Shown: in pieces, positions 1 through 61,184 of the stretch
Layout of the letters: each line of letters starts with the position of its first letter
Numbering within the stretch: position 1 is the first letter of the stretch
Virus record (IMG/VR): IMGVR_UViG_3300042360_000496
Coordinates: 1-61,843 of that record
DNA length: 61,843 bases
Source of the DNA: a virus
Taxonomy: Duplodnaviria > Caudoviricetes
Strand: one strand, 5' to 3'
Program-made: the position numbers and the translations under genes
The notes under the pieces: generated by a model
Told to the model about the DNA's origin: nothing
What the model saw: the letters and a program-made list of their open reading frames with translations, nothing else
The model's database searches: none

Positions 1-226
1 ACCCTAAATACCTAATATATTAGGTTAATTATAATTAATAAATATTAGTAGTAAAAATAACTTAAATAGGGTATAATACCCGCTTTAAAATTAATACGTA
101 TTAATTTTAAAGCGGGTATTATACCCTAAATACCTAATATATTAGGTTAATTATAATTAATAAATATTAGTAGTAAAAATAACTTAAATAGGGTATAATT
201 ACCCGCTTTAAAATTAATACGTATTA
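1..226. repeat. Direct repeat of ~104 bp (1-104 and 123-226, one 1-nt indel)
   Basis: accctaaatacctaatatattagg...cccgctttaaaattaatacgtattaa recurs with a 122-nt offset; may partly reflect contig-end assembly. Confidence 0.9.
67..128. repeat. Perfect 62-bp palindrome centred on TACGTA
   Basis: Checked base by base; symmetry axis between 97 and 98. Confidence 0.95.
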
Positions 227-267
227 ACTAACCTAAGTTATATTAAATATATTTTATTTAAAAACCC

Positions 268-296
268 TTTACTAAGCTAATAGCTTAGGGTATACT
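268..296 (+). promoter_or_regulatory. Sigma70-like promoter TTTACT-N17-TATACT with CTAA-N4-TTAG palindrome in the spacer
   Basis: -35 at 268-273, -10 at 291-296, palindrome at 277-288, upstream of ORF 375. Confidence 0.75.
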
Positions 297-374
297 TTAT
301 ATATAAAGGTTAAGGCGGTAACTAAAGCCCCCGTAACTTTTTAAAATAATAACTAAGAAATGGAGAAATACGTA

Positions 375-548
375 ATGTCAAATGAACTAAACGCTAGACG
401 CGCAGATATGACCGATGATACTACTTTACTTATTGAAAAGCTAGAAAAGCGTAAATTTGAACTACTAGCCCAAATAAACGCGGCTGAGCTTGAAATAGGG
501 AGTATTAACGGAGTAATAAGAACCCTTAAGACAAGTTTATTATTATAA
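375..548 (+). CDS. Small coiled-coil early protein
   Basis: ORF track 360..548; the 360 ATG lies inside the GAAATGGAGAA Shine-Dalgarno motif, so 375 is preferred. Confidence 0.7.
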   Translation: MSNELNARRADMTDDTTLLIEKLEKRKFELLAQINAAELEIGSINGVIRTLKTSLLL

Positions 549-556
549 TCCTGAGT

Positions 557-596
557 AAAATACGGTAGCTACTAATACGTTAGCTACCGTATTTTT
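557..596 (+). terminator. Intrinsic terminator, 15-bp stem, possibly bidirectional
   Basis: aaaatacggtagcta / tagctaccgtatttt followed by T-rich sequence, just after the ORF stop. Confidence 0.8.
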
Positions 597-1332
597 TATT
601 ATTTTAATAGCGATTTACCTATTTAATTAAAAATTAAAGGGTTTAAGTACAACCCGAGTCGTTTTTGAGTCAATTGTTAAGACGACTATAGTCGGTTTTA
701 AACGATTTACGGAGTAAATACATGATTATGACTCAAAAACTTGGGTTGTTTTAGAAAAATCGCTGTGCAGCTGTGTGTGCATGGGTATATTTAATATAAA
801 CTACTAATTAAATATATATATTTTATTTAATATTTACTAGTTTACTATTCTAAGAAGGTAATAGGTCCCGAGTGAGGGGTCTTAACCTTGGGCTTAAAAA
901 CGACTCTGCGGACGACGGCTGGACGCTTATAAAATCGGCTTAGTATACTATGTTAATGCGTAAAGCGTATTTACGTATTAACAAAACGTTAATCTAAAAT
1001 GGGTCTATAAAAGTTACTATAAGCTGCACCTATGTATTTCGCTTTAGTCCAATAACCTAAACATAATATTAATCATATTTAATAATCCGTTTATTAAGTT
1101 AAAGTTAAGGAAAACCGCTATATTTTCTTTAACTATACCTTAATAAAAGCCCCCTTTTAAGCCTAAAATTCACTATATACGTATTAACGTTGTGCTAATA
1201 TTAAGATAACTCGTATATAGCTATACGTATACACTCACCTTTAAGGTTAGGTTAACGAGACTATACGTATTACTCAGTAAATACTAATAATAAATACGTA
1301 AAGCCCTTTACTAAATAAGGTATATACTAGTT

Positions 1333-1730
1333 CGGTATACGGTATACGCTATACGGTATACCGTATACCGTATAGGCTAACTAGTATATACTAATAACCT
1401 ATACCGTATTACGTATATAGGTATACTATACCGTATTACGTATATAGGTATACTATACCGTATTACGTATATAGGTATACTATACCGTATATACGCTATA
1501 CGGTATACTATAACGTATATACGCTATACGGTATACTATAACGTATATACTAGTATACTATAACGTATATACGCTATACGGTATACTATAACGTATATAC
1601 TAGTATACTATAACGTATATACGCTATACGGTATACTATAACGTATATACGCTATACGGTATAGGTTAACTAGTATATACGGGAGGTAATAGGTATATAC
1701 GCTATACGGTATAGGTTAATAGGTATATAC
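1333..1730. repeat. Tandem array of TATACG/GTATAC-rich units (3 x 27 bp at 1399-1479, then interleaved 28- and 22-bp units)
   Basis: ctataccgtattacgtatataggtata x3; repeated cgtatatacgctatacggtatactataa and cgtatatactagtatactataa. Confidence 0.9.
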
Positions 1731-2019
1731 CTCCTACCCCTTAAAATGCGTATTTACTGAGGGGCTCACGTACAAACTCACCCTCTCCATACTTTTTTCT
1801 CGAAACATTCCGTAAATACGTCTTTTATTTTTATGTCTTACCAGAACAAAAATCCCCTCAAAACAAACGAATATTTTCGAAAGACCTCAAAAACAAATCC
1901 ACCCGAAAACCCATATTCCCTGCAAAAATTTCCAGCAAAAATCCCGAAAACCTCAGTATTTACGTAATACTTCCCTCATTAATTAGGTATATTTAATGTA
2001 AACAACGCACTTTCCCTTT

Positions 2020-2793
2020 ATGGATATAGACACCTCTCCAATACCTATAATCGAAGCCTCAAACACCTCTTCTTACGAGCAATACTCATCAATCTCACCT
2101 CTGGAGGAAGATCAAGAAGATTCTTCGTCTTCTTGGACTAATGAGTCTGAAGATAATAGTGGAAACCTCGATAATAGTGGAAACGTCATATACAACAATT
2201 CTACACTTATACCCATCCGACAACTTTCGAAGACCAACAGCGGTCTGCTAGTTGACCTTGCTACAAAAACTGTTACAAATACCTTAAATGGGTTCGTCAT
2301 AGATTATTCCGATTGGGACTTTACGTCCTTATGGGCAAAGAAAGCTGCTTTACAGAGAAATCCTAGAGCGTTCAAGAAAATAGAGCCATTGAAAATTGCC
2401 AAGATCATCGCTCTGATTAGCAATACTGGGCTTCAACACTTCGCTGCTTCGATGTTGAATGAGAATTGGCCATACATCGACAAGAATTATATTCAGACGA
2501 TGCCGAAGCTTGAAGAATGGCTCAATTTCGCACAAGATTGCTTCTCTGATACTTTAGAGGGGGAAGTTATCAGAAGAGCTTTTGTTGGGGTGAAGGTTCC
2601 TGTGTTTTTCCAGGGAATACAATGTGGAGAAGAAACAAGATATTCGGATTCTCTTGCACTTGCCGTCCTGAAGAAGAGGAGACAGGAATATCGCGAAGGG
2701 AAGACCGAAGGAGCTGCCAAGGAATCTGGTGGAGTTCTAGTTGTCAATCAAACATCGAATTCGAATGATGAATGGGAGAGGTTGACGGAATGA
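2020..2793 (+). CDS. terS: Terminase small subunit with acidic low-complexity N-terminal extension
   Basis: Immediately upstream of TerL; C-terminal LEGEVIRRAFVG..PVFFQG..G...YSDSL pattern typical of this TerS type. Confidence 0.75.
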   Translation: MDIDTSPIPIIEASNTSSYEQYSSISPLEEDQEDSSSSWTNESEDNSGNLDNSGNVIYNNSTLIPIRQLSKTNSGLLVDLATKTVTNTLNGFVIDYSDWDFTSLWAKKAALQRNPRAFKKIEPLKIAKIIALISNTGLQHFAASMLNENWPYIDKNYIQTMPKLEEWLNFAQDCFSDTLEGEVIRRAFVGVKVPVFFQGIQCGEETRYSDSLALAVLKKRRQEYREGKTEGAAKESGGVLVVNQTSNSNDEWERLTE

Positions 2794-4340
2794 ACATGAC
2801 GTCAACCTCTAGCATATCCCCTCCCGTCAACAAAATCCGATGGGAAAGTCGAGACGATACTCTCAAGGCAGTTTACACGAATCCTGAGGATGCTAACGAA
2901 GTTGAAGCAACATGGGCTCCTCAAGATGGATCTCAAGATTTGTTTCTCAGATGTCCTGTGTTTGAAGTTTTATTCACGGGAACTCGTGGACCTGGAAAAA
3001 CAGATGCTCTTCTTATGGACTTCGCGAAGAACGTGGGAAAAGGTTACAAAGAAGAATGGCGTGGGATTCTTTTTCGGAGGACTTATCCGGAACTTTCAGA
3101 TGTTATAGATAAATCAAAGAAATGGTTCAGTAAGATTTTCCCACGAGCTAAGTTCAATGAGTCGAAGAATTTCTGGTTGTTTCCTGATGGAGAGAAGCTT
3201 TTCTTCCGACATTTTGAACGTCCTGCTGATTATTACAGTTATCACGGACATGCGTATCCTTGGATAGCTTGGGAAGAGTTGACAACGTGGCCAGATGATA
3301 AATGCTACAAGTCTATGATGTCTTGTGCGAGATCGACTATTGTTGGTGTACCCATCACTGTCAGAGCAACAACGAATCCTTATGGTATTGGGCACAACTG
3401 GGTGAAGTCAAGATTTAGGCTTCCTGTTCCTCCGAATAAGAAAGTTGGGAAGATAATATATGATTCTGTCGATCAAGATGACAAACCAGAACCACCAAGA
3501 GTTGCTATCCATGGAGATTTGAATGAAAACAAGATTCTCCTACACTCCAATCCAGACTACATAGACCGAATTAGAGCTTCTGCTAGAAATAACTCAGAAC
3601 TTCAAGCTTGGTTGTATGGATCGTGGGATATTGTCGCTGGAGGGATGTTCGATGATATTTGGTGCGACTATAGAGATAAGATAATTGTTCCACGATTTGA
3701 AATCCCAAAAACATGGAGAATCGACAGATCTTTTGACTGGGGGAGCTCAAAACCTTTCTCTGTTGGTTGGTGGGCTGTCAGTGATGGTGGTGATGTTCTT
3801 CTGCCCAATAATAAGGTGATGTCCACGATGAAAGGTGACCTCTTCCGTATAAATGAATGGTATGGGTGGTCTGGGACTCCGAATGAGGGGACTAAAATGT
3901 TGGTAGATGAAATTGCTAAGGGGATATTGAAAAGAGAGAAATCGTGGGGCATGGATAAAGGTAGAGTCGTTGCTGGACCTGCAGATAGTTCAATATTTGA
4001 CGAAGAGAATGGAAATTGTATTGCTACAGATTTTCAAAATCTTGGAATATATTGGGAGAAAGCTGACAAGAAGCCAGGATCCAGGAAACAAGGTTGGGAA
4101 CAAGTTAGGAAAAGACTTAAAGCCACATATAACAATGGAGCTCCTAGAGAAGAAGCAGGACTGTTTATCTTTGATCATTGCACTCAATGGACGAGAACAG
4201 TTCCTTGTCTACCGAGAGACGACAAAGATATTGATGATGTTGATACAGAAGCTGAAGATCACATCGGTGATGACACGAGATATAGGGTTAGATTCGAATC
4301 CAGAGAGATAATCCAAAGCAAGTCGATAGGGATGTTCTAA
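2790..4340 (+). CDS. terL: Terminase large subunit
   Basis: Walker A GTRGPGKT, Walker B WEELT, coupling motif ATTNP, RNase H-like FDWGSSKP and EDHIGD; ATGA overlap with terS (track start 2772). Confidence 0.95.
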   Translation: MNMTSTSSISPPVNKIRWESRDDTLKAVYTNPEDANEVEATWAPQDGSQDLFLRCPVFEVLFTGTRGPGKTDALLMDFAKNVGKGYKEEWRGILFRRTYPELSDVIDKSKKWFSKIFPRAKFNESKNFWLFPDGEKLFFRHFERPADYYSYHGHAYPWIAWEELTTWPDDKCYKSMMSCARSTIVGVPITVRATTNPYGIGHNWVKSRFRLPVPPNKKVGKIIYDSVDQDDKPEPPRVAIHGDLNENKILLHSNPDYIDRIRASARNNSELQAWLYGSWDIVAGGMFDDIWCDYRDKIIVPRFEIPKTWRIDRSFDWGSSKPFSVGWWAVSDGGDVLLPNNKVMSTMKGDLFRINEWYGWSGTPNEGTKMLVDEIAKGILKREKSWGMDKGRVVAGPADSSIFDEENGNCIATDFQNLGIYWEKADKKPGSRKQGWEQVRKRLKATYNNGAPREEAGLFIFDHCTQWTRTVPCLPRDDKDIDDVDTEAEDHIGDDTRYRVRFESREIIQSKSIGMF

Positions 4341-21481: not shown

Positions 21482-24400
21482 TTGAAAAGAAGAGAGATAA
21501 AAGGAGAAAAAGGATGTTTTGCTAGAGGCTCTCTAGTGATGATGGCTGACAAGACAGAAGTCAACATTGAATGCTTACAAATTGGAGATAAGTTACTTGG
21601 ATTTGAACCAAATGGAGAACTCTGCGAGACAACAGTCCAAGAGATAAGAAAACATGAGAATGAGAAAGCTTGGGAGTTTAGATTTTGGAATAGTACTGTT
21701 ACATGTACATCAAATCATTGGATTTTAAACCAGTTCAATTCCTTCGTTGAGATAGCTTCTCTAACTTGTGAAGATGCAGCAGTAAATGTGAACGGTCATT
21801 TGGAGCCACTCTACAGAGACCTTTCACTTGGGCTTGACACAGATGTCTTCTCTATAATCACCACAAATCACACCTTAATTGTAAACAAATTAAGATTCCA
21901 CAACGGTGGTTTGGGTTTAGAGCCTCACTTAGCTGGTAAGAAGGGGGGTGGCAAAGGGGACGGTGGAGGACAAGCCAGAACACCAGTTGAAAATCCAAAC
22001 AATCTTCAGAGTAAGAACATTGCCAGAATAATAGATTTGATATCTGAAGGTCCAATCCAAGGTTTGGTTGATGGATTTAAATCAATATACTTAGATGATA
22101 CACCAATACAAAATGATGATGACAGCTACAACTTTCAAGGATTTGAAATAGAAGGAAGACTTGGATACCCAGACCAAGACTTCTTGGCAGGTTTTAAACA
22201 AGCTGAAGCAGAAATATCTGTAGGGACAGAATTATTATTTGGGTCTCCTGTTGTAAGAACTATTAGTGATCCAGATTTAGATGCTTTAATTGTCAAGATA
22301 CAGATTCCAAACCTTTCTACAGTAAATTTAACTACGGGAGACACAACAGGTGGTTCTGTAACAATTAAGATAGAACTGAGAGAAAATGCTGGAGTTTACG
22401 AAACAATAATCCAAGACACAATTTCTGGGAAAACGACTTCTCCTTATGAAAGATCCTACAGAGTCCCACTAAACTACAACACACAACCATGGGATTTGCG
22501 TGTCTCAAGACTTACAGCTGACTCTTTTGTACAAACAACACAAAATAAAACATATTTCTCTTCTTACACCAAAGTCACAGACGTCAAACTTACATATCCA
22601 GACTGTGCTGTTGTAGGAGTTGTAGCAGATGCTGAACAGTTTGGTTCCAGAATCCCCAGTAGATCCTATGAAGTCTATGGATTAATAGTTAATATCCCAT
22701 CAAACTACAACCCGACAACAAGAGTCTACACAGGTATTTGGAACGGAACATTCAAATTAGCTTGGACAGATAATCCTGCTTGGGTCTTCTACGACTTATT
22801 GGTAAATCGCAGGTATGGTCTTGGAGAAGAGGTTAGTGGATATTTCGTTGATAAATGGTCAATCTATGAAATTGGTAAGTATTGTGATGGGCTTGTATCA
22901 GACGGACAAGGAGGATTTGAACCAAGATTCAGATTCAATGGTGTAATAAACAGCCGATCAGAAGCTTACAGAGTTTTAAATACAATAGCCTCTGCATTCC
23001 TCTCAATGATCTATTGGGGAGCAGGTGTTGTAACTCTTGCCCAAGATTCTCCATCGGATCCTGTTAAACTAGTCTCTCCAGCAAATGTAATTGATGGTTT
23101 ATTCAATTATTCTGGATCTTCTCTAAAGTCTAGAAGCACTGTAGCACTTGTTACATGGAATGATCCAGCTGATGCTTACAGAGCTTCTGTAGAGGTTGTT
23201 GAAGACCCTGAAGGAATAAGAAGATATGGTTTCAGACCAACAGATGTTGCTGCATTTGGTTGCACTTCACGTTCCCAAGCCCAAAGATATGGGAAATGGA
23301 TCCTGGATACAAATAAGTTTGCGACGGAAACAGTAAGTTATAAATGTTCCTTTGATCACATGGATCTTCGTCCTGGAGAGATAATAGCGATAGCAGATCC
23401 AGCTTATGCTGGTGCAAGACTAGGTGGAAGAATAAAGACAGCAACCACAACTGTCTTAGAGTTAGATCTAGTTCCAACAGAAACAGCTGGAGAAGCTCAC
23501 TACATTTGGTGTACACTGCCAAATGGAGATGTTGTTCAAAAACAAATTTTGTCTTTTGCTGGGAATACTGTTACATTGGATTCTGCTCTAAGCTCTGCTC
23601 CTTTGGTTGGTTCTATGTGGGTCTTAGGTGCGGCTTCAGTAAATCCAAGACAGTTTAGAGTTGTCTCTGTAACAGAGACAGATAAAAACATCTACGAAGT
23701 CACAGCGATTCAACACGATGAAACAAAATATGACAGAGTTGAATCTAACATCTCCACACCAACAGAAGAATTCTCTATCCTTCCAAGCGGTAAATTAGGA
23801 AAACCTTTAAACATCTCAATCCAAGAGTATCTGTACAAAGTTGGTCTTGGAGCAAAAGCAGCTTTTGACATTTCTGTATCACCAACATCAGATCCAAGAG
23901 CCAAGTTCTATGAAGTACAAATCTTAAGACCTGGAGACACAGATTATAAAACAATCTCATTATCTTCTATCTTCTCTGTTAAGGTGGAAGATACAATTAA
24001 TGGTACTTATGGTGTTAGAGCCAGATCCGTCTCCTCATTTGGGCTTAGAAGCGAATGGCTGCAAAAATCTTTTATTGTTGTTGCTTTATTAGCTCCTCCA
24101 AAAAATGTCACAGAATTAAGAGTCACTGTAAATTCAAATCAGTTGTTTATGGACTGGGATGCAGTTCCAGACTTAGATTTAGCTTTCTATGAAATAAAGT
24201 ACACTCCAGAAAGTAGTGGTGCTGCTTGGGGATCCAGTCAGCTGCTCAGACAAACAACAGGAACTAGCTTAACTGTTCCAGCTGCTAATGGTTCTTATTT
24301 AATAAAAGCTGTTGATACATCTGGTGTCTACAGTTTGATGGAGACTGTATCAGTTGTTGGGGTTGTTGATTTATTAAACAAAAATATTGTTGAAGAAGTG

Positions 24401-36870: not shown

Positions 36871-37024
36871 ATTTTTCTACATTTCTTTTTTATAGATAGT
36901 ACATGCCCTAAGACGATAAGTTAAAACTTTAAGTTCCTTAATTAAATTTAATAAAAAGACCAAGCCTTTTTCTCGAGAAAGAGAATAAAATTTTATTTGA
37001 ATCTAAGTAGAAATGGAGAAAAAG

Positions 37025-37369
37025 ATGAAACCATTGATGCTTCTTACCCAGAAGTACAACCGTCTCTGCAGGTTTTTCAACAAAAATTATATGCCTTCTT
37101 TTATCAAAGAAGAGCATGCAATTAAAAAGATTTTAGAACTGCAGGAATTAGTATCAGATCAACCACATATACAAGATCTATTTTTGTTAATTGTTGAGGG
37201 TGCTACAATGCCGATGCTGGTTGAACACTGGTTGAAAGTTAAACCAGAGGACAAAGATATCAAAGAAGAGAGTGTCAGAAAAAAGATAAATAATATCTTG
37301 GCTGACATTGCTTCGCGATTAAATCTAAGAATCGAAACTGGTATAATAATTCTAGAGGTAAAAGCATGA
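37025..37369 (+). CDS. Hypothetical protein leading the modification operon
   Basis: GAAATGGAGAA RBS; track start 37013 lies within the RBS. Confidence 0.65.
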   Translation: MKPLMLLTQKYNRLCRFFNKNYMPSFIKEEHAIKKILELQELVSDQPHIQDLFLLIVEGATMPMLVEHWLKVKPEDKDIKEESVRKKINNILADIASRLNLRIETGIIILEVKA

Positions 37370-38304
37370 CAGAATCAGTAACAGAAGCTACAAAACAACC
37401 TAGAAAAGTCAGAGAACCAAGACTTGATTTAGGACAAAAAATTAAAATGGATTTGTCTGGCTTTTGGAAATACTCTATAGATAGAGAAACCATAAGAATC
37501 AAAAAAGATGTCCTTAAACTACCAAAACCATTGACAGAGGATGAAGTATTTCTAAAAAATAAATTCTGTAATATTTTTAGAGAACATGACAGAACAACTA
37601 AATGGTTTAGAGAAAATATCAGAGATCCTTTAAAAGATAGTCCTGGAGTCTTATTCGCAACTGTTGCGTTTAGATGGTTTAACAGATGGCAGACTGGAGA
37701 GATTATCCAAGATCTACTTCTTGAACCACCAACAAGTTGGGAAACCTTTGAAACTACTATAAGATCAAGATTGATAGGTGTTAAACCAATTATCACTGGT
37801 TCTTATATGATCAAGACTCCGACTGGGCTTAACAAATCGGACGGTGTAATATCCAATATAAAAAACTTTTGGGGTGTAACAACTGAACCAAAGAGTCTAA
37901 AAGATATGCATACTTTCATAAAAGGGAAACCATTTATGGGCTCTTTTATGGCTTATGAAGTAGTTACAGATCTCCGTCATACATATCTCTGTAGAGAAGC
38001 AGAAGATATTAATACTTGGGCAGCAGCAGGCCCAGGAGCAGCTAGAGGATTAGCAAGAATTATTGGTAAACCTCTAGATTATTTTTCTCACTACTCACAT
38101 TTAGACCAAATAACAATGTGCTCATTGATGGAACAAATCTTACAGGATTCCATAACAAGCTGGCCAACAGAATGGTCTGATTGGGAAATGAGAGACGTGG
38201 AACACACTTTATGTGAATATGACAAATATTTAAGATGCCAATCTGGTCAAGGAAAAACAAAACAAAAATATGAGGGAGGGGTTTGTGAAGAAAATAATAG
38301 TTGA
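37366..38304 (+). CDS. 5-hydroxymethyluracil DNA kinase (aGPT-Pplase1/5-HMUDK family)
   Basis: KFCN.FRE.DRTT, FR.FN, G.F.AYEVV.DL, GPGA.RGL, R.VEH.LCE.DKY.R. Confidence 0.85.
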   Translation: MTESVTEATKQPRKVREPRLDLGQKIKMDLSGFWKYSIDRETIRIKKDVLKLPKPLTEDEVFLKNKFCNIFREHDRTTKWFRENIRDPLKDSPGVLFATVAFRWFNRWQTGEIIQDLLLEPPTSWETFETTIRSRLIGVKPIITGSYMIKTPTGLNKSDGVISNIKNFWGVTTEPKSLKDMHTFIKGKPFMGSFMAYEVVTDLRHTYLCREAEDINTWAAAGPGAARGLARIIGKPLDYFSHYSHLDQITMCSLMEQILQDSITSWPTEWSDWEMRDVEHTLCEYDKYLRCQSGQGKTKQKYEGGVCEENNS

Positions 38305-39283
38305 CTTGGATGACACAATTTGTTCAACCTTCAACAGAGATTTTGAAAATTCTGTTCCCAATCTAAGGTTAATAAATAAAATAAACAACCTTTTTTATCA
38401 AGACTGGGAAATAGTTATTCTAACAGCAAGAGGAAACTTATCCTGTAAAAATTTGGAAGAAAGGGAACAGAAATACAGAAAACAAATCGAAGTTTGGTTA
38501 AAGAAAAATGGTGTAAAATACACAAGACTATCTTTCGAGAAAGAGCTTGCTGTACACTACATTGACGATAAGTCTATTAGACCAGATGAATTTTGTGAGT
38601 TAGAAATTGAAAATTTAATTGGTTGGTCTGGTGCAACTATAGAAAAACATGGAGAAAAGGTTCTAAAAACTCACGAGAAGATACATTCCGAAGTTTCTTG
38701 GTACCAATTAGCAAAGAATTTTGATTTTAATGTTCCAAAAATATCTTCTGTTGTTGGAAAAACTCTAGAGATGGAGTATATCCATGGAAAAACTGGAGAT
38801 GTTTCTTCTAAAGAGTTGTTCGAAATTTGTGAAAAGTTTAAACTTATAAAACATTCTTCTCCAGACTTCGAAACATACTTGGAATATATCTCCAAACACT
38901 GTACACTAGATGTATTCACAGAGTTTGTTGAAAAATTGAAAAAGGATAGCCACACTTTTTTTAATTCCCAAAAGTCTTTTTGTCATGGTGATCTTTCGCT
39001 GGAAAACATAATAAAGTCAGAGATAAATTATAAGTTGTATCTTATTGACCCAATATATCTTCCAGCTGTCTATTCGTCTTGGCTTCTTGACATAAGTAAG
39101 AGTCTTTATTCATTAAAATTTCTTGGACAAGCAGAAAAATATGAAGAACTATTGGAACTTTCACCAAACAAATTGGATGTTTTAAAACTTGAGGCTACCC
39201 ACTGGATGAGAGTTTATAAGTATGCACCAACAGAAACAAAGCCCAGAATTTTGGAGGAGTTTAGACAATGTTTGACCAAATAG
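38285..39283 (+). CDS. HAD phosphatase fused to APH/choline-kinase-fold kinase
   Basis: N-terminal DLDDT, TARG, YIDDK; C-terminal HGDL..EN and LIDP; GTG start with GGAGG (track start 38270). Confidence 0.85.
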   Translation: MKKIIVDLDDTICSTFNRDFENSVPNLRLINKINNLFYQDWEIVILTARGNLSCKNLEEREQKYRKQIEVWLKKNGVKYTRLSFEKELAVHYIDDKSIRPDEFCELEIENLIGWSGATIEKHGEKVLKTHEKIHSEVSWYQLAKNFDFNVPKISSVVGKTLEMEYIHGKTGDVSSKELFEICEKFKLIKHSSPDFETYLEYISKHCTLDVFTEFVEKLKKDSHTFFNSQKSFCHGDLSLENIIKSEINYKLYLIDPIYLPAVYSSWLLDISKSLYSLKFLGQAEKYEELLELSPNKLDVLKLEATHWMRVYKYAPTETKPRILEEFRQCLTK

Positions 39284-39705
39284 AAAAGGCAAAAACTAAA
39301 GGTCTGAAAATTGGATTTACAGCTTCAACTTTTGATCTTCTTCATCCTGGACATATAGCTATGTTGGCAGAAGCAAAAGCCAATTGTCAATTCTTGGTTG
39401 TTGGATTGCTTACAGATCCAACTATCAGTCGTCCAGAAAAGGAAAAGCCTGTCCAAACTATGCTTGAAAGATATATACAAATTCAAGCTGTTAGATTTGT
39501 TGACATGGTTGTTCCATTCGAGACAGAAGAGGAATTGGAACAATTACTTCTGACAATAATGCCAGACATCCGATTTATAGGTGAAGAATATAAAAACACA
39601 AACCACACTGGCAGAGAAATAGAAGGAATAACAAATTATTACAATAAAAGAAAACACAAATTTAGTTCTACCGATTTAAGAGACAGACTGAGGAAAACAA
39701 AATGA
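39268..39705 (+). CDS. HxGH nucleotidyltransferase (TagD/RfaE-II cytidylyltransferase superfamily)
   Basis: STFDLLHPGH, ER...L/I.A...VD.V, R.H.FSST.LR. Confidence 0.9.
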   Translation: MFDQIEKAKTKGLKIGFTASTFDLLHPGHIAMLAEAKANCQFLVVGLLTDPTISRPEKEKPVQTMLERYIQIQAVRFVDMVVPFETEEELEQLLLTIMPDIRFIGEEYKNTNHTGREIEGITNYYNKRKHKFSSTDLRDRLRKTK

Positions 39706-41126
39706 AAACTTGCAAAAAAGACAAAATGAAAATTGCTTATGTATGTCACAAAGGAGACACATATGGTGGATTTGTTTCTCACACAGAGCATGCAATCCAT
39801 GGCTTGAAAAAAAGAGGGCACGATGTAGACTTCTTTTTTCTCTCCTATTCTGGTCCAAATGAAATGTTTGTTAGAAAAAAGATTGATACTCTTCACAAGG
39901 AAGGTGTAACAATAGAAGGTAAACATTTCAGAACGTTGGACAGAGGTATAGGGACAGGGTTGTATAATCATATACAACTTGGTTGGATCACACCAGTGAC
40001 TCCTTATAAAACTCTTCAGCAGAAGAAAATTCTAAAGGAAAAGCTTGAAACTTATGATGTTGTGATCTGGCATACACCATTTTGGTTTAAACAGAAACCA
40101 GTACTTTGCGACACAGATTGGCCAATGCTTCTTGATTTACAAAATCCTGTTAATGTTGCTTTTCATCATGATGCCAATATTAGAGACAATTCAGCTTGGA
40201 TGTTTTTTATCGACAAATATTTTGATAGATTAATAAATGTCCATCAAGCCAGCTACAACAGCTCAAGCGTCTTCGAAACACCAAGAACTTTGATTTTCAA
40301 TCCACAAATCATAAATAAGGTCGAAAAAGATTTTAATGGTGACAAAAAAGTTAAATTCTTTTCTCTCCAATACTGGAAAGGATCTAAACATGTTGACGAC
40401 TTGATTCGTGCAATTCCACATCTAAAGGAAGATATCTTGATAAGAGTTGCAGGAAATGGTCTAGATTATAGATATCTAAAATCGATTGATAAATGCCCAG
40501 AGGATTTTATTGGCAGCCCCAAAAGGGATCCTGATATTCTTGAGTCTAATATAGGTAGACCCATCTTCAATCTTGCCTTGGAAACAGGAAAATTAGAGGA
40601 CTTGAATTGGGTGACTGAACAAGAGAGGAATTCGATATTTGAAGATACAGATTTTTTTGTAGACACTGCGTGGTACAAAGTAAGTACCGAACTTGGAGAA
40701 CATTTCAGCAGAACTTTGGTGGAAGCTATGATACGTGGAATCGTTCCAATAGCTAGGAATCTTGGGCTTAGCAACAATCTGGAAGGGAATGGAGAAGTGT
40801 TTAAAGCTGGAGAAAACTATATTATGATTCCATATGATGCTACTCCAAAAGAATTTGCTGAAATACTTGATGGTGCTTCAAAAATTAGCTCGGGAGAATA
40901 CAAGAGAATACAAAATAATAATTTTGAACTTTTGAAACATTTTGACTTGGACTATGTTGTAGAACAATATGAGAAGGTCTTTAAAGGGGAGCCTTGTGGC
41001 TTCTATGGAAAATACGAAACTGGTGGTACAGAAATTCCAGATAAATTTTTGCAAAAAGCAGAAAAACAATGGTTTGGAACAGGTGATCACAGAACATTTA
41101 AATTTAAAAAGGAGAAAAATGACTAA
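39702..41126 (+). CDS. GT-B glycosyltransferase (GT4-like), candidate DNA glycosyltransferase
   Basis: MKIA..., GG...H.E....GL..RGHDV, K....LIRA, EHFSR..VEAM..G..P. Confidence 0.8.
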   Translation: MKTCKKDKMKIAYVCHKGDTYGGFVSHTEHAIHGLKKRGHDVDFFFLSYSGPNEMFVRKKIDTLHKEGVTIEGKHFRTLDRGIGTGLYNHIQLGWITPVTPYKTLQQKKILKEKLETYDVVIWHTPFWFKQKPVLCDTDWPMLLDLQNPVNVAFHHDANIRDNSAWMFFIDKYFDRLINVHQASYNSSSVFETPRTLIFNPQIINKVEKDFNGDKKVKFFSLQYWKGSKHVDDLIRAIPHLKEDILIRVAGNGLDYRYLKSIDKCPEDFIGSPKRDPDILESNIGRPIFNLALETGKLEDLNWVTEQERNSIFEDTDFFVDTAWYKVSTELGEHFSRTLVEAMIRGIVPIARNLGLSNNLEGNGEVFKAGENYIMIPYDATPKEFAEILDGASKISSGEYKRIQNNNFELLKHFDLDYVVEQYEKVFKGEPCGFYGKYETGGTEIPDKFLQKAEKQWFGTGDHRTFKFKKEKND

Positions 41127-41643
41127 ACCAACAATTACACAGATTCTAAAGCTTCTAGACAAACCAGCACTTGTCAAGTGGGCAAATAAGCTTGGGCTTG
41201 AAGGAACCTCTCTAGACTCTTTCTACGAAAAGAAAAGAGAAGAAGGAATATCTCTCCATGCCCAAATAGAACGATATGTGAAGAGTGGTGTTAGAATGAA
41301 GGATCCAGCTCATCAAGAAAGGATTGAGAAATTCTTTCAGACGAGAAGAGTGGTTGCTACCGAAAGAGAAATAGAGACGGAATGGTTCACTGGAAGAACT
41401 GACGTTGTATTTTACCAAGATGATGATCAATATGTTGGGGACTTCAAGTCTTCAGATGGGCTTTACTTTGAAAATAAGCTACAACTAGCTGCATATCAGC
41501 TTGCTTATCCTCAAGCAAAGATCTGCGTCATACATATACCACTGTTCGTTGTAGACACTATAAAGGAGGATCTAAGACCTTATCAGGACATTGTTAAGTT
41601 GCTTTCTAAAGTCTGGCAAATAAAGGAGGGGATAATTAAATGA
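41119..41643 (+). CDS. PD-(D/E)xK nuclease-like protein
   Basis: T.IL..LDKPAL..WA, G...H, GR.D, DFK, Q..AY. Confidence 0.7.
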   Translation: MTKPTITQILKLLDKPALVKWANKLGLEGTSLDSFYEKKREEGISLHAQIERYVKSGVRMKDPAHQERIEKFFQTRRVVATEREIETEWFTGRTDVVFYQDDDQYVGDFKSSDGLYFENKLQLAAYQLAYPQAKICVIHIPLFVVDTIKEDLRPYQDIVKLLSKVWQIKEGIIK

Positions 41644-41933
41644 AACTTGAAAGTCTAGCAAAGGCAAATCTACTTAGCAGCAAATTACAGATAGCTGAAG
41701 AAGAATTAAAAAATCTTGAAAAATTCTTAAAAACCTATGAACCATTAGCACCTGAAGAAAAGGAAAATGTCCGGATGAAACTCTTCCAATCTACGTCAGG
41801 AAAAGACGTGATGCTGCTGGCCTTCAGTCTTAGATTAGAAGACCCAGAGATAGTTCTTCAGTTATTACAAATTATTAAATCAAGAAAAGAATCACAAATA
41901 GCACAGTTTAAATTGGAGATTGAAAGTCTATGA
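41640..41933 (+). CDS. Hypothetical protein
   Basis: Coupled ORF. Confidence 0.6.
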   Translation: MKLESLAKANLLSSKLQIAEEELKNLEKFLKTYEPLAPEEKENVRMKLFQSTSGKDVMLLAFSLRLEDPEIVLQLLQIIKSRKESQIAQFKLEIESL

Positions 41934-42949
41934 AAGTTATAAAAGTTAGAAACGTCAATGACGCATTCATTATGGGTCTGAACTACCTCCAGAGAGAAGG
42001 TGTAGAAAGAGATTCAAGAAATGGAAAAGTTCTGGTTGCACCAGAACCTGTTTGCACAGTCTATCTACAGCCCAAAGAGAGGGTATTATTTAACATTGTT
42101 AGAGATGCTAATCCATTTTTCCACCTCTATGAAAGTATATGGATGCTAGCTGGTAGACGTGATGTACAAAGTTTAACAAACTTTGTTGCAAGAATGGAAG
42201 AGTTTTCAGATGATGGGACAACCTTTCATGCTGCCTATGGTTACAGATGGAGGAATCAATTTAAAATACAGGACAACTCTCTAGCAGATTTTGTAGATGA
42301 TACTTCTTTAGATACAAGTGATCAAATTTCTAAAATTATTGATATTCTAAAGAACAATAAAGATGATCGTAGAGCTGTCCTGCAGATATGGGATGCTCAT
42401 CTGGATCTTGGAAAACAATCAAAAGATATTCCCTGCAATTTAACTGTCCACTTTCAAGTTACAGCAGAAAATAAACTTGACATGACTGTCTTTAATCGAT
42501 CAAATGATATTATCTGGGGATGTTATGGAGCCAATGCTGTCCATTTCAGCTTTCTGCAAGAGTATGTAGCATATAAAACTTCTTACGAAATTGGCAGATA
42601 TTATCAGATCTCTGACAACTATCATGCCTATCTTAAGACTCTAGAGAAGGTTAAAGACGAAAAAACAATTTCAGATCCTTATTCTGGACCATCTGCTCCA
42701 AGAGTAGTTGGTGTTGATTTTTCAACTGATGAATGTTTAAAGTTCATCAGAGAGGTGAGACCAGAAAGTATGTATTCAAACTTCAATTTCAATTCTGTGT
42801 TTCTTAGAGAAGTAGCTCTTCCAATGACACTCAGCTATTATCACTATAAAAAAGGAGACAAAAGATTGGCTCAAGACACTCTTTTGAAGATGATAGCTGG
42901 TGTTGACTGGAAAATAGCTGCTCTAGAATGGTTAGGGAGGAGAAAATAA
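41930..42949 (+). CDS. Thymidylate synthase homologue, probable dUMP hydroxymethylase
   Basis: RDANPFFHL.E, catalytic DIPCN, RSND..WG..GAN (Asn indicates dUMP specificity), H.Y; co-occurs with a 5-hmU DNA kinase. Confidence 0.8.
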   Translation: MKVIKVRNVNDAFIMGLNYLQREGVERDSRNGKVLVAPEPVCTVYLQPKERVLFNIVRDANPFFHLYESIWMLAGRRDVQSLTNFVARMEEFSDDGTTFHAAYGYRWRNQFKIQDNSLADFVDDTSLDTSDQISKIIDILKNNKDDRRAVLQIWDAHLDLGKQSKDIPCNLTVHFQVTAENKLDMTVFNRSNDIIWGCYGANAVHFSFLQEYVAYKTSYEIGRYYQISDNYHAYLKTLEKVKDEKTISDPYSGPSAPRVVGVDFSTDECLKFIREVRPESMYSNFNFNSVFLREVALPMTLSYYHYKKGDKRLAQDTLLKMIAGVDWKIAALEWLGRRK

Positions 42950-42973
42950 AATAAAATTAATAAGGTTATTTTG

Positions 42974-42992
42974 CTAAGATATTAGTTATGAT
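42974..42992 (+). promoter_or_regulatory. CTAA-N4-TTAG palindrome plus -10 box (TATGAT)
   Basis: ctaagatattag-t-tatgat upstream of ORF 43033. Confidence 0.55.
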
Positions 42993-43032
42993 TCTTATAG
43001 GTGACTAAAACCTATAAGAAATGGAGAATAAA

Positions 43033-43581
43033 ATGCAAACAGCACAATTAGTAGATCTAGAGCAGTTTAGAGGAAATATTTCTCTGAATGTTACTCAAAT
43101 GAACAGTCAAGTTCGTCACATGAAGAACAGAGAAATGGATTGGGAGGTGTTTCTACCAACCAAAGGAAAGAATTTACAAAGAGGGTTTGTTTGGACTGTT
43201 GGTCAAAAAAGAGAACTGATAGAATCAATTCTTCTTGGGAGGCAGATTCCAAACTTCTATTTCATAAATTCTTTTGACACTGTAAAAAACAAAGACATAT
43301 TGATCGTCATAGACGGAAAACAAAGGCTCTCAACAATCTTTGACTTTTTGGACGATAAATTCACAATGTCATTTACAGGTTGGTTGGATGATTATGAATT
43401 TCTCTTCTCCGAGCTTCCACTAGAATATCAAAGAGCAATAACTGGTTTTTGGCTGAACTATCACATTGTCAATGAAGACATGGATAAGAGAATAACAGAT
43501 AAAGAAAAGATACAATGGTTCAAGTTTATAAATTTCGCAGGTACACAACAAGATAAAACACATATGGAGGAATTAAATTGA
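43033..43581 (+). CDS. DUF262 (ParB/Srx-like) domain protein
   Basis: QR..VW, LIESIL.G..IP, IDGKQRL. Confidence 0.85.
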   Translation: MQTAQLVDLEQFRGNISLNVTQMNSQVRHMKNREMDWEVFLPTKGKNLQRGFVWTVGQKRELIESILLGRQIPNFYFINSFDTVKNKDILIVIDGKQRLSTIFDFLDDKFTMSFTGWLDDYEFLFSELPLEYQRAITGFWLNYHIVNEDMDKRITDKEKIQWFKFINFAGTQQDKTHMEELN

Positions 43582-47849: not shown

Positions 47850-47878
47850 TTTACTTTTTAAAAATAAGAGGGTATACT
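47850..47878 (+). promoter_or_regulatory. Sigma70-like promoter TTTACT-N17-TATACT
   Basis: Same hexamers and spacing as the 268-296 promoter. Confidence 0.7.
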
Positions 47879-59577: not shown

Positions 59578-59612
59578 GATTTAATTTGTGGATTTGGGAT
59601 TTAATTTGTGGA
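59578..59612. repeat. Two copies (one partial) of the 20-bp unit gatttaatttgtggatttgr
   Basis: Read directly; abuts the start codon at 59577. Confidence 0.8.
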
Positions 59613-59652
59613 CATTAGGGTTGATAGTCGCATTTTGAAATTTTGAGAAATT

Positions 59653-59970
59653 TCAAAATGGGTCTTCCTCCAATCGGAGAGTCTTCTCTAGGATCATTTG
59701 ATTTAGTTTATCTGCGTAGTAACCACCATTTAGAGACTGAAATATATCTTCTGTGTTTAGAGCTCGGCAGTTATTTTGATCGATGTTTATAAAATCTCCT
59801 TTTTTGTCATAATTTATAGAGAAAGTGACAATTACTTTAGTTTTATTTATTGAGTTTATATGGTGATCCAGAATTATTGACCAATAAGGAGTTTGAGGTG
59901 CATTCCTGTGAAAATGGATTTGGTTTATTTCTAGAAGAGGATAATTTAATTTTGAGATTTGAGATTTCAT
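59653..59970 (-). CDS. Hypothetical early protein
   Basis: ORF preceded by 20-bp repeats. Confidence 0.6.
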   Translation of the reverse strand: MKSQISKLNYPLLEINQIHFHRNAPQTPYWSIILDHHINSINKTKVIVTFSINYDKKGDFINIDQNNCRALNTEDIFQSLNGGYYADKLNQMILEKTLRLEEDPF

Positions 59971-60040
59971 GATTTAATTTGTGGATTTGAGATTTAATTT
60001 GTGGATTTGAGATTTAATTTGTGGATTTGAGATTTAATTT
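59971..60040. repeat. 3.5 x 20-bp tandem repeat gatttaatttgtggatttga
   Basis: Read directly; abuts the start codon at 59970. Confidence 0.95.
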
Positions 60041-60054
60041 ATATATTCGGGATT

Positions 60055-60255
60055 TCAACTTTCGATTAATTTAATTTCGCTCATAGCTCTACTAGGAGGA
60101 GCGTAGCTAAGCCCAGCGATTGTGACTGTCACCACGTTCTTTACTAATTTAACTTTAAGGTCATAACCACATAGATTAGCTAATCTTTTGAGGTAATTTT
60201 CTCTTATATAAGAGCGAACTAGGGAGGCATTTTGGGTGTTAGTTAGGTTTATCAT
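60055..60255 (-). CDS. Hypothetical early protein
   Basis: GAAATGGAGAA RBS. Confidence 0.65.
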   Translation of the reverse strand: MINLTNTQNASLVRSYIRENYLKRLANLCGYDLKVKLVKNVVTVTIAGLSYAPPSRAMSEIKLIES

Positions 60256-60285
60256 GATTTATTCTCCATTTCGTTTAATTTGGGT

Positions 60286-60489
60286 TTATGAGTATATTCC
60301 GCTTATTACTGCTAAATTCTTTTTAGTTAAGGATTTAACTACAGGGGCAGAAACCCAAGTTAGGAATTTATTTCTGTAAGTTAGAGCCCAGTAACCTTGT
60401 CCATTGTTGCAAAATTTTAATTTAGCTTTTCCTCTTTTATTTTTTAGCTTATGAATTGCCCATTGATATTGTTTTGTCAGAGTTGTCAT
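60286..60489 (-). CDS. Hypothetical basic early protein
   Basis: AAGGA RBS. Confidence 0.65.
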   Translation of the reverse strand: MTTLTKQYQWAIHKLKNKRGKAKLKFCNNGQGYWALTYRNKFLTWVSAPVVKSLTKKNLAVISGIYS

Positions 60490-60515
60490 TTTGATTTTCC
60501 TTAATTTAATTTGGG

Positions 60516-60570
60516 TTTAGAGCAATTAAGCTCTCTAGAGCGGGAGTTACCGCTGAAGAGAATTTAATTT
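60516..60570 (-). repeat. Twin-hairpin intergenic element, copy 1
   Basis: tttagagcaattaagctctctagagcgggagttaccgctgaagagaatttaattt. Confidence 0.9.
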
Positions 60571-60805
60571 ATATTTCGGTATAATCAAACCTTGCTGAAC
60601 CGAAATATCTTTTTCTAAAACCAAATTTCTTGGTTTCTTTGTTATAGTAATAAGATTTTTGAGTTATTTCGTTTTCTCTATCATTCCCAGATAGAGGGTA
60701 TAGAAAAAGCTTGCCTTGTGATTTAATTTTTCTTTCGTCTAAATTTATTATTACGGTTTTTAGTAATTCTATAAATTTAATTTTGGATTGTAGATTAGTG
60801 TTCAT
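60569..60805 (-). CDS. Hypothetical early protein
   Basis: Start corrected from 60817, which lies inside the RBS motif. Confidence 0.65.
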   Translation of the reverse strand: MNTNLQSKIKFIELLKTVIINLDERKIKSQGKLFLYPLSGNDRENEITQKSYYYNKETKKFGFRKRYFGSARFDYTEI

Positions 60806-60832
60806 AGGTTTCTCCATTTCGTTTAATTTGGG

Positions 60833-60887
60833 TTTAGAGCGGTTAAGCTCTCTAGAGCGGGAGTTCCCGCTGAAGAGAATTTAATTT
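60833..60887 (-). repeat. Twin-hairpin intergenic element, copy 2
   Basis: tttagagcggttaagctctctagagcgggagttcccgctgaagagaatttaattt. Confidence 0.9.
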
Positions 60888-60893
60888 ATATAT

Positions 60894-61184
60894 CTAGGAT
60901 TCTATTTTCCAATTGTGCCAGCGGATTTTACCTTGGCTGTTATGATAGTATTGTTCACGTTTCAATTTGGTGGTACCGATTTTGACGGTCACAGAGAAGA
61001 AATAACCGTCGTAGAAAACAGAAATGTTTGGTTTAATTTCAATTTCTTTGCCTTCAGTTAGGTTATTTTCATCTTCTTCATAAGATTTTCCTAGTTCTAA
61101 AGCTAACTTTTCGCTTTTTTCAATAAAAGCTAAAGCTAATTTAAAAGCGTCGGCTTTAATTTTCTTTTCGTTAGAGGTTTTCAT
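60894..61184 (-). CDS. Hypothetical early protein
   Basis: Start corrected from 61196; -10 box at 61212-61217 and palindrome at 61220-61231. Confidence 0.65.
   Translation of the reverse strand: MKTSNEKKIKADAFKLALAFIEKSEKLALELGKSYEEDENNLTEGKEIEIKPNISVFYDGYFFSVTVKIGTTKLKREQYYHNSQGKIRWHNWKIES

What the first reader, a model, noticed from the sequence alone, without database searches (positions are those of the whole stretch)
1..1740. Terminal/early region purged of TG/TC (CA/GA) dinucleotides: a possible modification-free zone
Seen: bases 1-357 and 1333-1683 contain no TG, TC, CA or GA, so no T on either strand is followed by G or C. The first exception is the GA of the Shine-Dalgarno motif at 357. 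Early genes at both ends (375-548, 61517-61741) favour ACT/ACG/CCT/GCT/AGT/GGG codons, whereas the core genome favours ACA/CCA/GGA/AGA/TCT and has many TCTAGA and GATC sites. Inference: the hypermodification targets T in a 5'-T(G/C) context. The DNA first read by host RNA polymerase, or bound by terminase or origin proteins, would have evolved to stay unmodified while the core keeps protective sites. This predicts the enzyme's sequence specificity from genome composition. Caveat: both stretches are partly repetitive, so independent information is lower than the lengths suggest.
Basis: partly seen in the sequence, partly recalled or inferred. Interest (0 to 1): 0.88.

Follow-up and report, generated by a model that had tools for sequence, protein, structure and literature searches.

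The report
Phage early region lacking T-G/T-C steps
A lake phage that chemically decorates its thymines has wiped from its early control region the two-letter contexts where related phages attach such decorations, so this stretch probably stays plain DNA.

Summary
Bases 1-357 and 1333-1683 contain no TG, TC, CA or GA, against 26% of steps genome-wide. After collapsing repeats the chance probability is about 1e-19 and 1e-13. Of 55 dinucleotide sets tested, this pair is by far the most extreme.

The zone holds divergent sigma-70-like early promoters (all TTTACT-N16/17-TATA[A/C]T), terminators and tandem arrays upstream of terS. The depletion continues, partial and strand-symmetric, into seven flanking early genes. 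It is absent from core genes and core intergenic DNA.

The phage carries a 5-hmdU DNA kinase locus. Published restriction analyses place this pathway's modification at TG/TC in M6, ViI, phiW-14 and SH-Ab 15599. A modification-free early zone is therefore my best reading (about 0.45).

Against it, 0 of 9 other kinase-bearing genomes has such a zone, and no modification data exist for this phage.

Three AT-rich relatives, where no kinase was found, carry 560-1349-nt zones purged of a different set (AG/CT, CC/GG, CG). These zones include conserved genes whose proteins lack Gly, Pro, Arg and Trp. Dinucleotide-purged early zones are thus a wider phenomenon, unreported in my searches.

The parts
1..357 (.). 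Block free of TG/TC/CA/GA. It holds two about 122-nt direct repeats, each with a leftward sigma-70-like promoter (55->28 and 177->150, TTTACT-16-TATAAT). It also holds a rightward promoter (268-296, TTTACT-17-TATACT) and perfect palindromes (about 77-118; arms 91-118 / 200-227).
360..548 (+). First rightward early gene (62 aa, or 57 aa from the ATG at 375). TS/SA density is 0.168 against 0.259 expected from synonymous shuffling (z -4.6). No family match.
554..650 (.). Two adjoining TS/SA-free runs (554-612 and 613-650) with a hairpin plus T-run after the early gene. A 9-nt TS-bearing spacer at 548-556 is missing in 3 of 4 runs laid.
783..849 (.). TS/SA-free AT-rich run containing TTTACT motifs, flanked by TS-containing islands (651-782 and 850-1126). 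Those islands carry a 28-nt inverted repeat (656-683 / 879-906).
1127..1170 (.). TS/SA-free run. One lake variant (X4, C1152T) creates a TC here.
1276..1732 (.). 457 nt with only two TS/SA steps (TC at 1332, GA at 1683). It consists of tandem arrays with a 7-nt period (CGGTATA-like, about 47 copies) and 28-, 50- and 78-nt higher-order units rich in inverted repeats. I read it as a candidate binding array (iterons or a terminase or regulator site).
1741..2019 (+). C-rich stretch of normal TS density directly upstream of terS, near-identical in contig L008 (90% mean column identity over the whole 385-column alignment; mismatches concentrate in the zone part). L008's sequence to the left of it is non-homologous yet TS-free for all 43 nt held. 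Candidate pac region (inference).
2020..4340 (+). terS (2020-2793, phrog_4044 2.2e-16) and terL (2772-4340, PF03237 9.2e-10). TerL is about 60% identical to those of YuA-like Pseudomonas phages and Sphaerotilus phage SN1.
60055..61756 (-). Six small leftward early genes with TS/SA depletion that fades with distance from the zone. Observed/expected runs 0.53, 0.68, 0.87, 0.81, 0.89, 0.78; the next gene, 59653-59970, is at 1.03.
37366..38304 (+). 5-hmdU DNA kinase homologue (PF18723, 7.4e-40). It is 43-46% identical to those of PaMx11/Ab18-like phages and 29% to that of SH-Ab 15599.
38270..41126 (+). Window-specific branch of the locus. It comprises a HAD-phosphatase-like plus kinase-like protein (38270-39283), an RfaE-domain-II-like nucleotidyltransferase (39268-39705) and a GT4-type glycosyltransferase (39702-41126).
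41930..42949 (+). Thymidylate-synthase homologue, the presumed dUMP hydroxymethylase.
43021..43581 (+). ParB/GmrSD_N-like protein (PF03235, 1.2e-15) beside the locus.

Best explanation
Bases 1-1740, together with about 60,055-61,843 if the two record ends adjoin, form the phage's immediate-early control region. It holds divergent host-type promoters, terminators and a tandem binding-site array next to terS.

Selection has removed every T followed by G or C, on either strand, from the non-coding elements. In the first early genes, 13-47% of these steps are gone.

T(G/C) is the context in which the 5-hmdU-kinase pathway installs thymidine hypermodifications in the relatives studied. Virion DNA of this zone would therefore carry only plain T or hmU and no bulky adduct.

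The likely benefit is that the injected parental genome stays readable. Host RNA polymerase could then bind and open the promoters, and regulators, initiator or terminase could bind their arrays. A second possible benefit is that the zone offers no target to modification-dependent nucleases before early proteins are made.

Shown: the purge, its specificity, its position over promoter-like sites, and the kinase locus. Inferred: this kinase's context, the unmodified state of the zone, and the benefit.
For: 1. The purge is specific to {TG/CA, TC/GA}: rank 1 of 55 sets. It survives repeat collapse.
2. It is local. Core intergenic observed/expected is 0.98. Of the 71 core ORFs between 2 kb and 60 kb, 62 have z >= 0 and none falls below -1.5, while the seven early genes have z from -1.0 to -5.5.
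3. In early genes only these four dinucleotides are depleted (ratios 0.65-0.87). The other classes are at 0.96-1.28.
4. All four intergenic sigma-70-like sites use TTTACT, the closest TS-free version of TTGACA. Three of them lie in the zone.
5. The kinase and TS homologue are present.
6. Published context. TG/TC predominates in resistant sites of M6, ViI and phiW-14, and M6 kinase is said to act at TG (PMC6449724, section 10). In SH-Ab 15599 the order is TG, then TC, then TT/TA far behind, and sites such as ACGT, AGCT and CTAG, the kind kept in the zone, are only weakly resistant to cleavage (PMC13458397). Phage T-dioxygenases are likewise NTC- or NTG-specific (PMC13229309).
7. Kinase treatment of hmU templates cut E. 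coli RNA polymerase output to 37% of natural DNA (PMC6457204). Bulky 5-substituents block bacterial polymerases, probably at initiation (PMC4838386, abstract).
8. The grammar is kept through turnover. L008 has unrelated but TS-free sequence at the array edge. In three other lake runs, 6 of 7 substitution events inside the blocks create no TS, although 57.5% of possible substitutions would.
Against: - 0 of 9 other kinase-bearing genomes has a comparable zone. The longest TS-free runs are 21-56 nt in five TerL relatives, 41 nt in SH-Ab 15599 apart from a poly(A) at the record start, and 38-41 nt in three complete phages that also carry the homologous glycosyltransferase.
- The depletion in early genes is equal on coding and template strands (0.72 vs 0.77). 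A pure elongation block would not give this.
- TS-containing islands of normal density lie inside 549-1340, so the purge is element-wise, not a continuous domain.
- Variants with a TS exist: one TC in X2 (by my reconstruction of its indels), one TC in X4, and a (CGGTATC)3 loose end in X3.
- This kinase's context is inferred from homologues only 29-46% identical.
- AT-rich relatives in which no kinase was found (G013 a complete record; the other two are fragments) have zones purged of another set. Something other than this pathway can therefore produce such zones.
Confidence: 0.45

Rival explanations
1. Avoidance of a host factor unrelated to the phage's own modification. On this reading the early region is purged of short motifs recognised by a host nuclease or other defence acting on incoming DNA, and the match to the TS context is coincidence.
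For: - Purged zones over early promoters also occur in relatives in which no kinase was found, with a different set.
- Nine other kinase-bearing genomes lack a zone.
- The depletion is strand-symmetric, as expected for recognition of double-stranded DNA.
- The core avoids GCGC, CCGG and GGCC (0.22-0.54), which shows restriction pressure.
Against: - Known restriction enzymes read 4 bp or more, not dinucleotide classes.
- The same dinucleotides are at or above expectation in the core (1.09-1.14). A host target would be avoided genome-wide.
- The chance that an unrelated purge hits exactly the TS pair is about 1 in 45 pairs.
Confidence: 0.2
2. A structural or binding-site grammar. The A-(G/C)n-T block pattern with many TpA steps would be what the promoters, palindromes and tandem arrays need in their own right: easy melting, curvature, or recognition by a regulator, initiator or terminase. 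Modification would play no part.
For: - TpA observed/expected is 1.57 and 2.78 in the two stretches.
- The arrays and palindromes are dense.
- The zone sits at the divergence point of transcription and at the minimum of cumulative GC skew.
- It adjoins terS.
Against: - It does not explain the synonymous-site depletion in seven early genes.
- It does not explain why unrelated sequence in L008 keeps the same grammar.
- It does not explain why spacers, terminators and promoters of different sequence all obey one rule.
Confidence: 0.15
3. Local mutational bias, for example context-specific deamination or error-prone copying of modified T confined to this region.
For: The zone is richer in A+T than the genome (78% and 68% against 63%) and has raised CG, CC/GG and TA, as some transition schemes would give.
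Against: - No single known context rule removes both TC and CA.
- Zero occurrences over hundreds of bases need saturation, yet the promoters, palindromes and genes are intact.
- There is no reason for the bias to be local.
- In the sister zones, conserved ORFs survive under the same kind of purge.
Confidence: 0.05
4. The zone is maximally modified rather than unmodified. If this kinase acted on T preceded by G/C (ST), every G/C block in the zone would be flanked by modified T on both strands.
For: The grammar is formally symmetric: every G/C block is followed by T and preceded by A. No data exist for this phage's enzyme.
Against: In SH-Ab 15599 DNA, sites with ST but no TS (AGCT, GTAC, ACGT, CTAG) are only weakly resistant to cleavage, while TG sites are resistant (PMC13458397). 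M6, ViI and phiW-14 point to TS.
Confidence: 0.07

Closest known systems
5-hmdU-kinase-dependent thymidine hypermodification (M6, ViI, phiW-14, PaMx11, SH-Ab 15599)
   Same: A thymidylate-synthase homologue plus a PF18723 kinase. The published TG/TC context equals the purged set.
   Different: The PF18724 transferase, found in 5 of 5 kinase-bearing TerL relatives, is absent here. A glycosyltransferase, a nucleotidyltransferase, a HAD/kinase protein and a ParB-like protein stand in its place. None of the nine comparison genomes has a TS-free zone. My searches found no paper describing one.
   Same: An early-expressed stretch that lacks sequence elements harmful before early proteins are made.
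   Different: There the avoided elements are host restriction sites of 6 bp or so. Here a whole dinucleotide class is gone, and it matches the phage's own modification context. Whether this zone enters first is unknown (one search gave no molecule ends).
Zones free of AG/CT, CC/GG and CG in AT-rich TerL relatives (L056 193-1541, L066 4514-5438 = G013 23121-24045, L068 109-668), found here
   Same: They lie upstream of the packaging genes and span a sigma-70-type early promoter and terminators. The purge is strand-symmetric and total.
   Different: The dinucleotide set is disjoint. TTGACA is allowed and used. Whole genes are purged. No PF18723 or Tet_JBP hit was found. A TS-like gene, a MazG-like gene and ThyX are present.
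Vertebrate CpG islands (recalled)
   Same: Promoter regions kept free of a DNA modification.
   Different: In islands the target dinucleotide is abundant and is protected from the enzyme. Here the target itself is deleted from the sequence.

Membership tests
5-HMUDK-dependent thymidine hypermodification phage | dUMP hydroxymethylase (thymidylate-synthase homologue) | tested here: met
   41930-42949: PF00303 1.4e-24 and NCBIfam thymidylate-synthase models below their cut-offs. Substrate and product not testable.
5-HMUDK-dependent thymidine hypermodification phage | 5-hmdU DNA kinase | tested here: met
   37366-38304: PF18723 7.4e-40, 137.5 bits against a cut-off of 25.
5-HMUDK-dependent thymidine hypermodification phage | Transferase that replaces the phosphate (PF18724 'ADDT' family, found in relatives) | tested here: not met
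   No six-frame match at E <= 0.1 in the window. 5 of 5 kinase-bearing relatives match at 1.4e-23 to 3.6e-48. I infer the family's role from its position beside the kinase; I did not read it up.
5-HMUDK-dependent thymidine hypermodification phage | Partial replacement of T, at T followed by G/C | not testable with these tools
   Needs native DNA. Literature only, for other phages.
First-entering, site-poor early segment (T5 FST-like) | Lies at the physical end that enters first | tested here: inconclusive
   The record is 'linear, no end repeats'. The runs laid were contigs only, no place where molecules begin or end was listed, and no contig bridged position 1.
First-entering, site-poor early segment (T5 FST-like) | Holds host-type early promoters and the first early genes | tested here: met
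   Consensus scans only: TTTACT-N16/17-TATA[A/C]T at 55->28, 177->150 and 268-296, with genes at 360-548 and 61756-60055. The number of promoter-like sites does not exceed that in shuffles (9 against 11.2).
Iteron-type replication origin | Tandem direct repeats beside an easily melted AT-rich stretch | tested here: met
   Arrays at 1333-1732 and TpA excess. Initiator binding and origin activity not testable.
pac/terminase recognition region | Lies directly upstream of terS, with repeats | tested here: inconclusive
   Position and repeats fit. Cleavage and termini could not be examined.

The most novel reading that the evidence does not exclude
Phages with context-specific DNA hypermodification keep an immediate-early 'clean zone' from which their own modification context has been deleted. 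The purged dinucleotide set would then read out the enzyme's specificity directly from the genome.

For this phage that gives T followed by G/C.

For the G013-type relatives it predicts an undescribed pyrimidine modification at C followed by C, G or T (equally, G preceded by A, C or G). It would also explain early proteins built without Gly, Pro, Arg or Trp.
Probability: 0.35. Interest if true: 0.9.

Novelty: categorically new. Interest (0 to 1): 0.8.

Why it matters
Partial, context-specific hypermodification of phage DNA is known, but why it is partial and what it costs the phage are open questions.

A zone from which the target context has been erased would be the first genomic sign that these adducts interfere with the phage's own early DNA transactions, or expose it to modification-dependent defences.

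It would also give a sequence-only way to predict the specificity of uncharacterised modification enzymes in metagenomic phages.

The sister zones show that such selection can be strong enough to dictate the amino-acid alphabet of conserved proteins.

Both ideas can be tested directly by native-DNA sequencing of lake viromes in which this phage is common. One search listed 24 runs from 21 studies.

Tried and rejected
- No nucleotide relatives in the phage collection.
- Single-protein locus searches gave only one near-identical fragment, L008, nothing for an early protein, and only the source record for the G013 ORF.
- DNA-pattern scans of viral contigs with an array unit and with the early-gene initiation motif gave chance hits without zones.
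- The metagenome scan with the TerL alignment gave no closer relative with upstream DNA. The best was L162: 77% identity, but a contig of only 1361 nt.
- Rfam gave only sub-threshold hairpin-like hits. There are no tRNAs.
- Idea: 'a bulkier, glycosyl-type adduct explains why only this phage needs a zone'. It was raised. It was not borne out: 0 of 3 complete phages with the homologous glycosyltransferase plus kinase has a zone.
- Idea: genome-wide TS enrichment marks kinase-bearing phages. No pattern was found.
- Tet_JBP dioxygenase was not found in the G013-type records or the window.
- PF18725 was a wrong guess of mine for a transferase family; it is HEPN_SAV2148.
- Sequencing runs: no RNA holder was listed. 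Contigs gave no molecule ends and did not bridge position 1.
- Cumulative GC skew follows gene orientation and cannot separate an origin from transcription.
- Coverage limits: G005 was analysed over 60,000 of 60,155 nt and G014 over 60,000 of 62,501 nt. L161 (GC 0.396) has only about 3 kb upstream of TerL and was uninformative.
- Literature searches for a dinucleotide-free or unmodified early region in hypermodified phages found nothing.
Full report
WHAT THE WINDOW IS

The window is a whole IMG/VR virus record: 61,843 nt, estimated 99% complete, with no end repeats. TerS, TerL and portal lie at 2.0-6.3 kb. TerL is about 60% identical to those of YuA-like Pseudomonas phages and Sphaerotilus phage SN1.

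A DNA-metabolism block holds a 5-hmdU DNA kinase homologue (37366-38304, PF18723 7.4e-40), a thymidylate-synthase homologue (41930-42949), ribonucleotide reductase, an SNF2 helicase and a family A polymerase.

Genes run rightward from 360 to about 54.3 kb and leftward from 61,756 to 54,308. If the ends adjoin, transcription diverges from bases 1-357.

TG, TC, CA and GA make up 26.0% of steps in the genome. None occurs in 1-357 or in 1333-1683, and the next six longest free runs also lie in 1-1740.

- 1-357 holds two about 122-nt direct repeats with palindromes.
- 1333-1683 is a 7-nt-period array with 28-, 50- and 78-nt higher-order units.
- Counting only steps that end a 10-mer not seen before on either strand leaves 235 and 118 steps. 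With local base composition this gives log10P of -19.3 and -12.6.
- Every one of the 34 and 52 G/C blocks is preceded by A and followed by T.

Among 55 single or paired strand-symmetric dinucleotide classes this pair scores 97.6 nats. Its own halves score 55.3 and 41.7, and the next set scores 12.0.

The region also reverses the genome's signature: CG observed/expected is 2.07 against 0.47, and TA is 1.72 against 0.68.

THE DEPLETION IS LOCAL AND REACHES INTO GENES

- Core intergenic DNA is not depleted (280 observed against 286.7 expected).
- Against a synonymous-codon null, the gene at 360-548 has z = -4.6.
- The six leftward genes nearest the zone have observed/expected of 0.53, 0.68, 0.87, 0.81, 0.89 and 0.78. 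The seventh is at 1.03. Of the 71 core ORFs, 62 have z >= 0 and none falls below -1.5.
- Pooled over the seven early genes, only the four named dinucleotides fall (0.65-0.87). Other classes are at 0.96-1.28.
- The fall is the same on the coding strand (0.72) and the template strand (0.77).

ANATOMY OF THE ZONE

The consensus scan finds leftward TTTACT-16-TATAAT sites at 55->28 and 177->150 and a rightward TTTACT-17-TATACT site at 268-296. The total count of promoter-like sites does not exceed shuffles.

A genome-wide pattern search finds only one more intergenic site of this form, at 47850-47878, and no intergenic TTGACA form. TTTACT is the nearest TS-free approximation of TTGACA.

The leftward promoters point across position 1 toward the gene at 61,756. 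This fits contiguity of the record ends, which I could not verify.

TS-free runs also cover a terminator-like hairpin after the first gene (554-612) and the arrays up to 1732. Islands of normal TS density lie between them, at 651-782, 850-1126 and 1171-1275. No ORF of 45 aa or more lies in 549-2019.

The C-rich 1741-2019 stretch before terS is near-identical in a second contig, L008. To the left of it L008 has unrelated sequence that is again TS-free for all 43 nt held.

POPULATION DATA

The stretch occurs in 24 listed runs from 21 studies, mostly lake water. I laid contigs of four runs on it.
- Inside the TS-free blocks, 13 substituted positions fall into 7 events. Only one (C1152T in X4) creates a TS, although 57.5% of all possible substitutions there would.
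- Of the indels, one complex insertion in X2 creates a TC by my reconstruction.
- A loose end in X3 reads (CGGTATC)3.
- A 9-nt TS-bearing spacer at 548 is absent in three of the four runs.

This is modest support for purifying selection on the grammar. It also shows that the rule is not absolute.

LINK TO THE MODIFICATION

Flodman et al. (PMC6449724; section 10 read in full) found TG, TC or both in 57.1%, 58.3% and 49.6% of restriction sites resistant in M6, ViI and phiW-14 DNA. They inferred a TS preference of the kinase and cited unpublished activity of the M6 kinase at TG.

A 2026 paper (PMC13458397; passages) reports for SH-Ab 15599 that the modification falls preferentially at TG, less at TC and much less at TT or TA. 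Digestion at AATT and TTAA was complete, and resistance at ACGT, AGCT, CTAG and GTAC was only weak. Those are exactly the kinds of site that remain in the zone. This also argues against the mirror reading (T preceded by G/C).

Phage T-dioxygenases show NTC or NTG preference too (PMC13229309; passages).

It is not a new prediction, but the coincidence with the purged pair (1 of 45 pairs) is the main argument for the link.

On cost, two papers bear on it.
- Kinase treatment of hmU templates lowered E. coli polymerase output to 37% of natural DNA, whereas hmU alone raised it (PMC6457204; passages).
- Bulky 5-substituents block bacterial polymerases, probably at initiation (PMC4838386; abstract).

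EVIDENCE AGAINST GENERALITY

PF18723 was found in 6 of 30 TerL-relative records, and in 5 of the 14 that are at least 90% complete.
- In those five near-complete records the longest TS-free runs are 21, 37, 26, 22 and 56 nt. No 300-nt window falls below 0.70 of expectation.
- SH-Ab 15599 has none beyond a poly(A) at the record start.

The window's locus differs from those relatives. It lacks PF18724, which all five have. Instead it has a HAD/kinase protein, an RfaE-II-like nucleotidyltransferase, a GT4 glycosyltransferase and a ParB/GmrSD_N-like protein.

The glycosyltransferase family is tied to the kinase. All 9 of 9 viral records with a homologue also have PF18723. Fused forms exist: P0132 (829 aa) and 846-aa frames in G037 and G038.

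Yet three complete phages of that kind have no zone; their longest runs are 38-41 nt. The zone is thus peculiar to this lineage among the 10 kinase-bearing genomes examined.

A SISTER PHENOMENON

Scanning all TerL loci for any purged set showed three AT-rich relatives with long zones free of AG/CT, CC/GG and CG.
- L056: 1349 nt.
- L066, which is G013, a complete 62.6-kb record: 925 nt.
- L068: 560 nt.

In these zones almost every G follows T and almost every C precedes A.

In G013 the zone spans a near-consensus TTGACA-16-TACAAT site and terminators. It also holds ORFs of 154-169 aa that are 35-41% identical among the three phages. These ORFs carry 0-2 forbidden dinucleotides, and their proteins have no Gly, Pro, Arg or Trp.

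G013 has no PF18723 or Tet_JBP match. It does have a thymidylate-synthase-like gene next to a MazG-like gene, plus ThyX, which hints at a modified pyrimidine.

The two purged sets are disjoint, and each zone covers early promoters. This fits a common rule, 'the early zone lacks the phage's own modification context'. It equally shows that the kinase pathway is not needed for such zones.

WEIGHING

I put 0.45 on the modification-free early zone. The rivals are:
- 0.20 on avoidance of an unrelated host factor;
- 0.15 on a purely structural or binding grammar;
- 0.07 on the mirror reading, a maximally modified zone;
- 0.05 on mutational bias.

The remainder is unassigned. Chance, repeats or an assembly artefact are excluded for practical purposes.

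Within the main reading I cannot separate two benefits: 'readable by polymerase and DNA-binding proteins' and 'invisible to modification-dependent nucleases'. The strand symmetry in genes and the total purge of coding DNA in the sister zones lean toward a double-strand-level liability. The element-wise pattern in 549-1340 leans toward binding and opening of specific elements.

Noticed in passing
L056:193-1541; L066:4514-5438 (G013:C1:23121-24045); L068:109-668: Zones of 560-1349 nt with no AG/CT and almost no CC/GG or CG, in three AT-rich TerL relatives. They include conserved 154-169 aa ORFs (35-41% identical) whose proteins lack Gly, Pro, Arg and Trp, and no Shine-Dalgarno sequence is possible there. 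In G013 they span a TTGACA-16-TACAAT site and terminators.
   Followed up: partly
window 37013-43581: The hypermodification locus lacks the PF18724 transferase present in 5 of 5 kinase-bearing relatives. Instead it has a HAD-phosphatase/kinase-like protein, an RfaE-II-like nucleotidyltransferase, a GT4 glycosyltransferase and a ParB/GmrSD_N-like protein. This suggests an undescribed, possibly sugar- or polyol-phosphate-bearing thymidine adduct.
   Followed up: partly
P0132; G037:C1:23487-24329; G038:C1:64974-65816: Homologues of the window's glycosyltransferase occur fused to the kinase helical domain (829-846 aa). They co-occur with PF18723 in 9 of 9 viral records, mostly 51-148 kb AT-rich phages.
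   Followed up: partly
window 357-382 and 61734-61759: The two divergent first early genes share an identical 26-nt ribosome-site-plus-start stretch. Several early proteins begin MEK(Y/P)(V/M).
   Followed up: no
window 59578-60054 and 60490-61516 (minus strand): Two repeated features. First, arrays of an about 20-nt repeat (five copies seen across two intergenic stretches) at the boundary where TS depletion ends. Second, a conserved leader with a GC-rich hairpin and an ATATA-N-AAATTAAAT motif before three early genes.
   Followed up: no
L021:796-860; L078:2021-2083; L088:9093-9144; L013, L014, L017, L019: GC-rich YuA-like relatives carry a short AT-rich microsatellite upstream of terS. In some it is (TAAGT)n(AAT)n(TA)n and TS-free. 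In others it is (CTAT)n, which contains TC.
   Followed up: partly
window 2020-60000: The three most avoided 4-bp palindromes are the T-less GCGC (0.22), CCGG (0.27) and GGCC (0.54). CG observed/expected is 0.47 in the core.
   Followed up: no
window 656-683 / 879-906: A 28-nt inverted repeat (82% complementary) joins the two TS-containing islands across the TS-free run 783-849.
   Followed up: no
window 1-2100: The stretch, or parts of it, is held by 24 listed public runs from 21 studies, nearly all lake or freshwater metagenomes. Assemblies break inside the repeats.
   Followed up: partly
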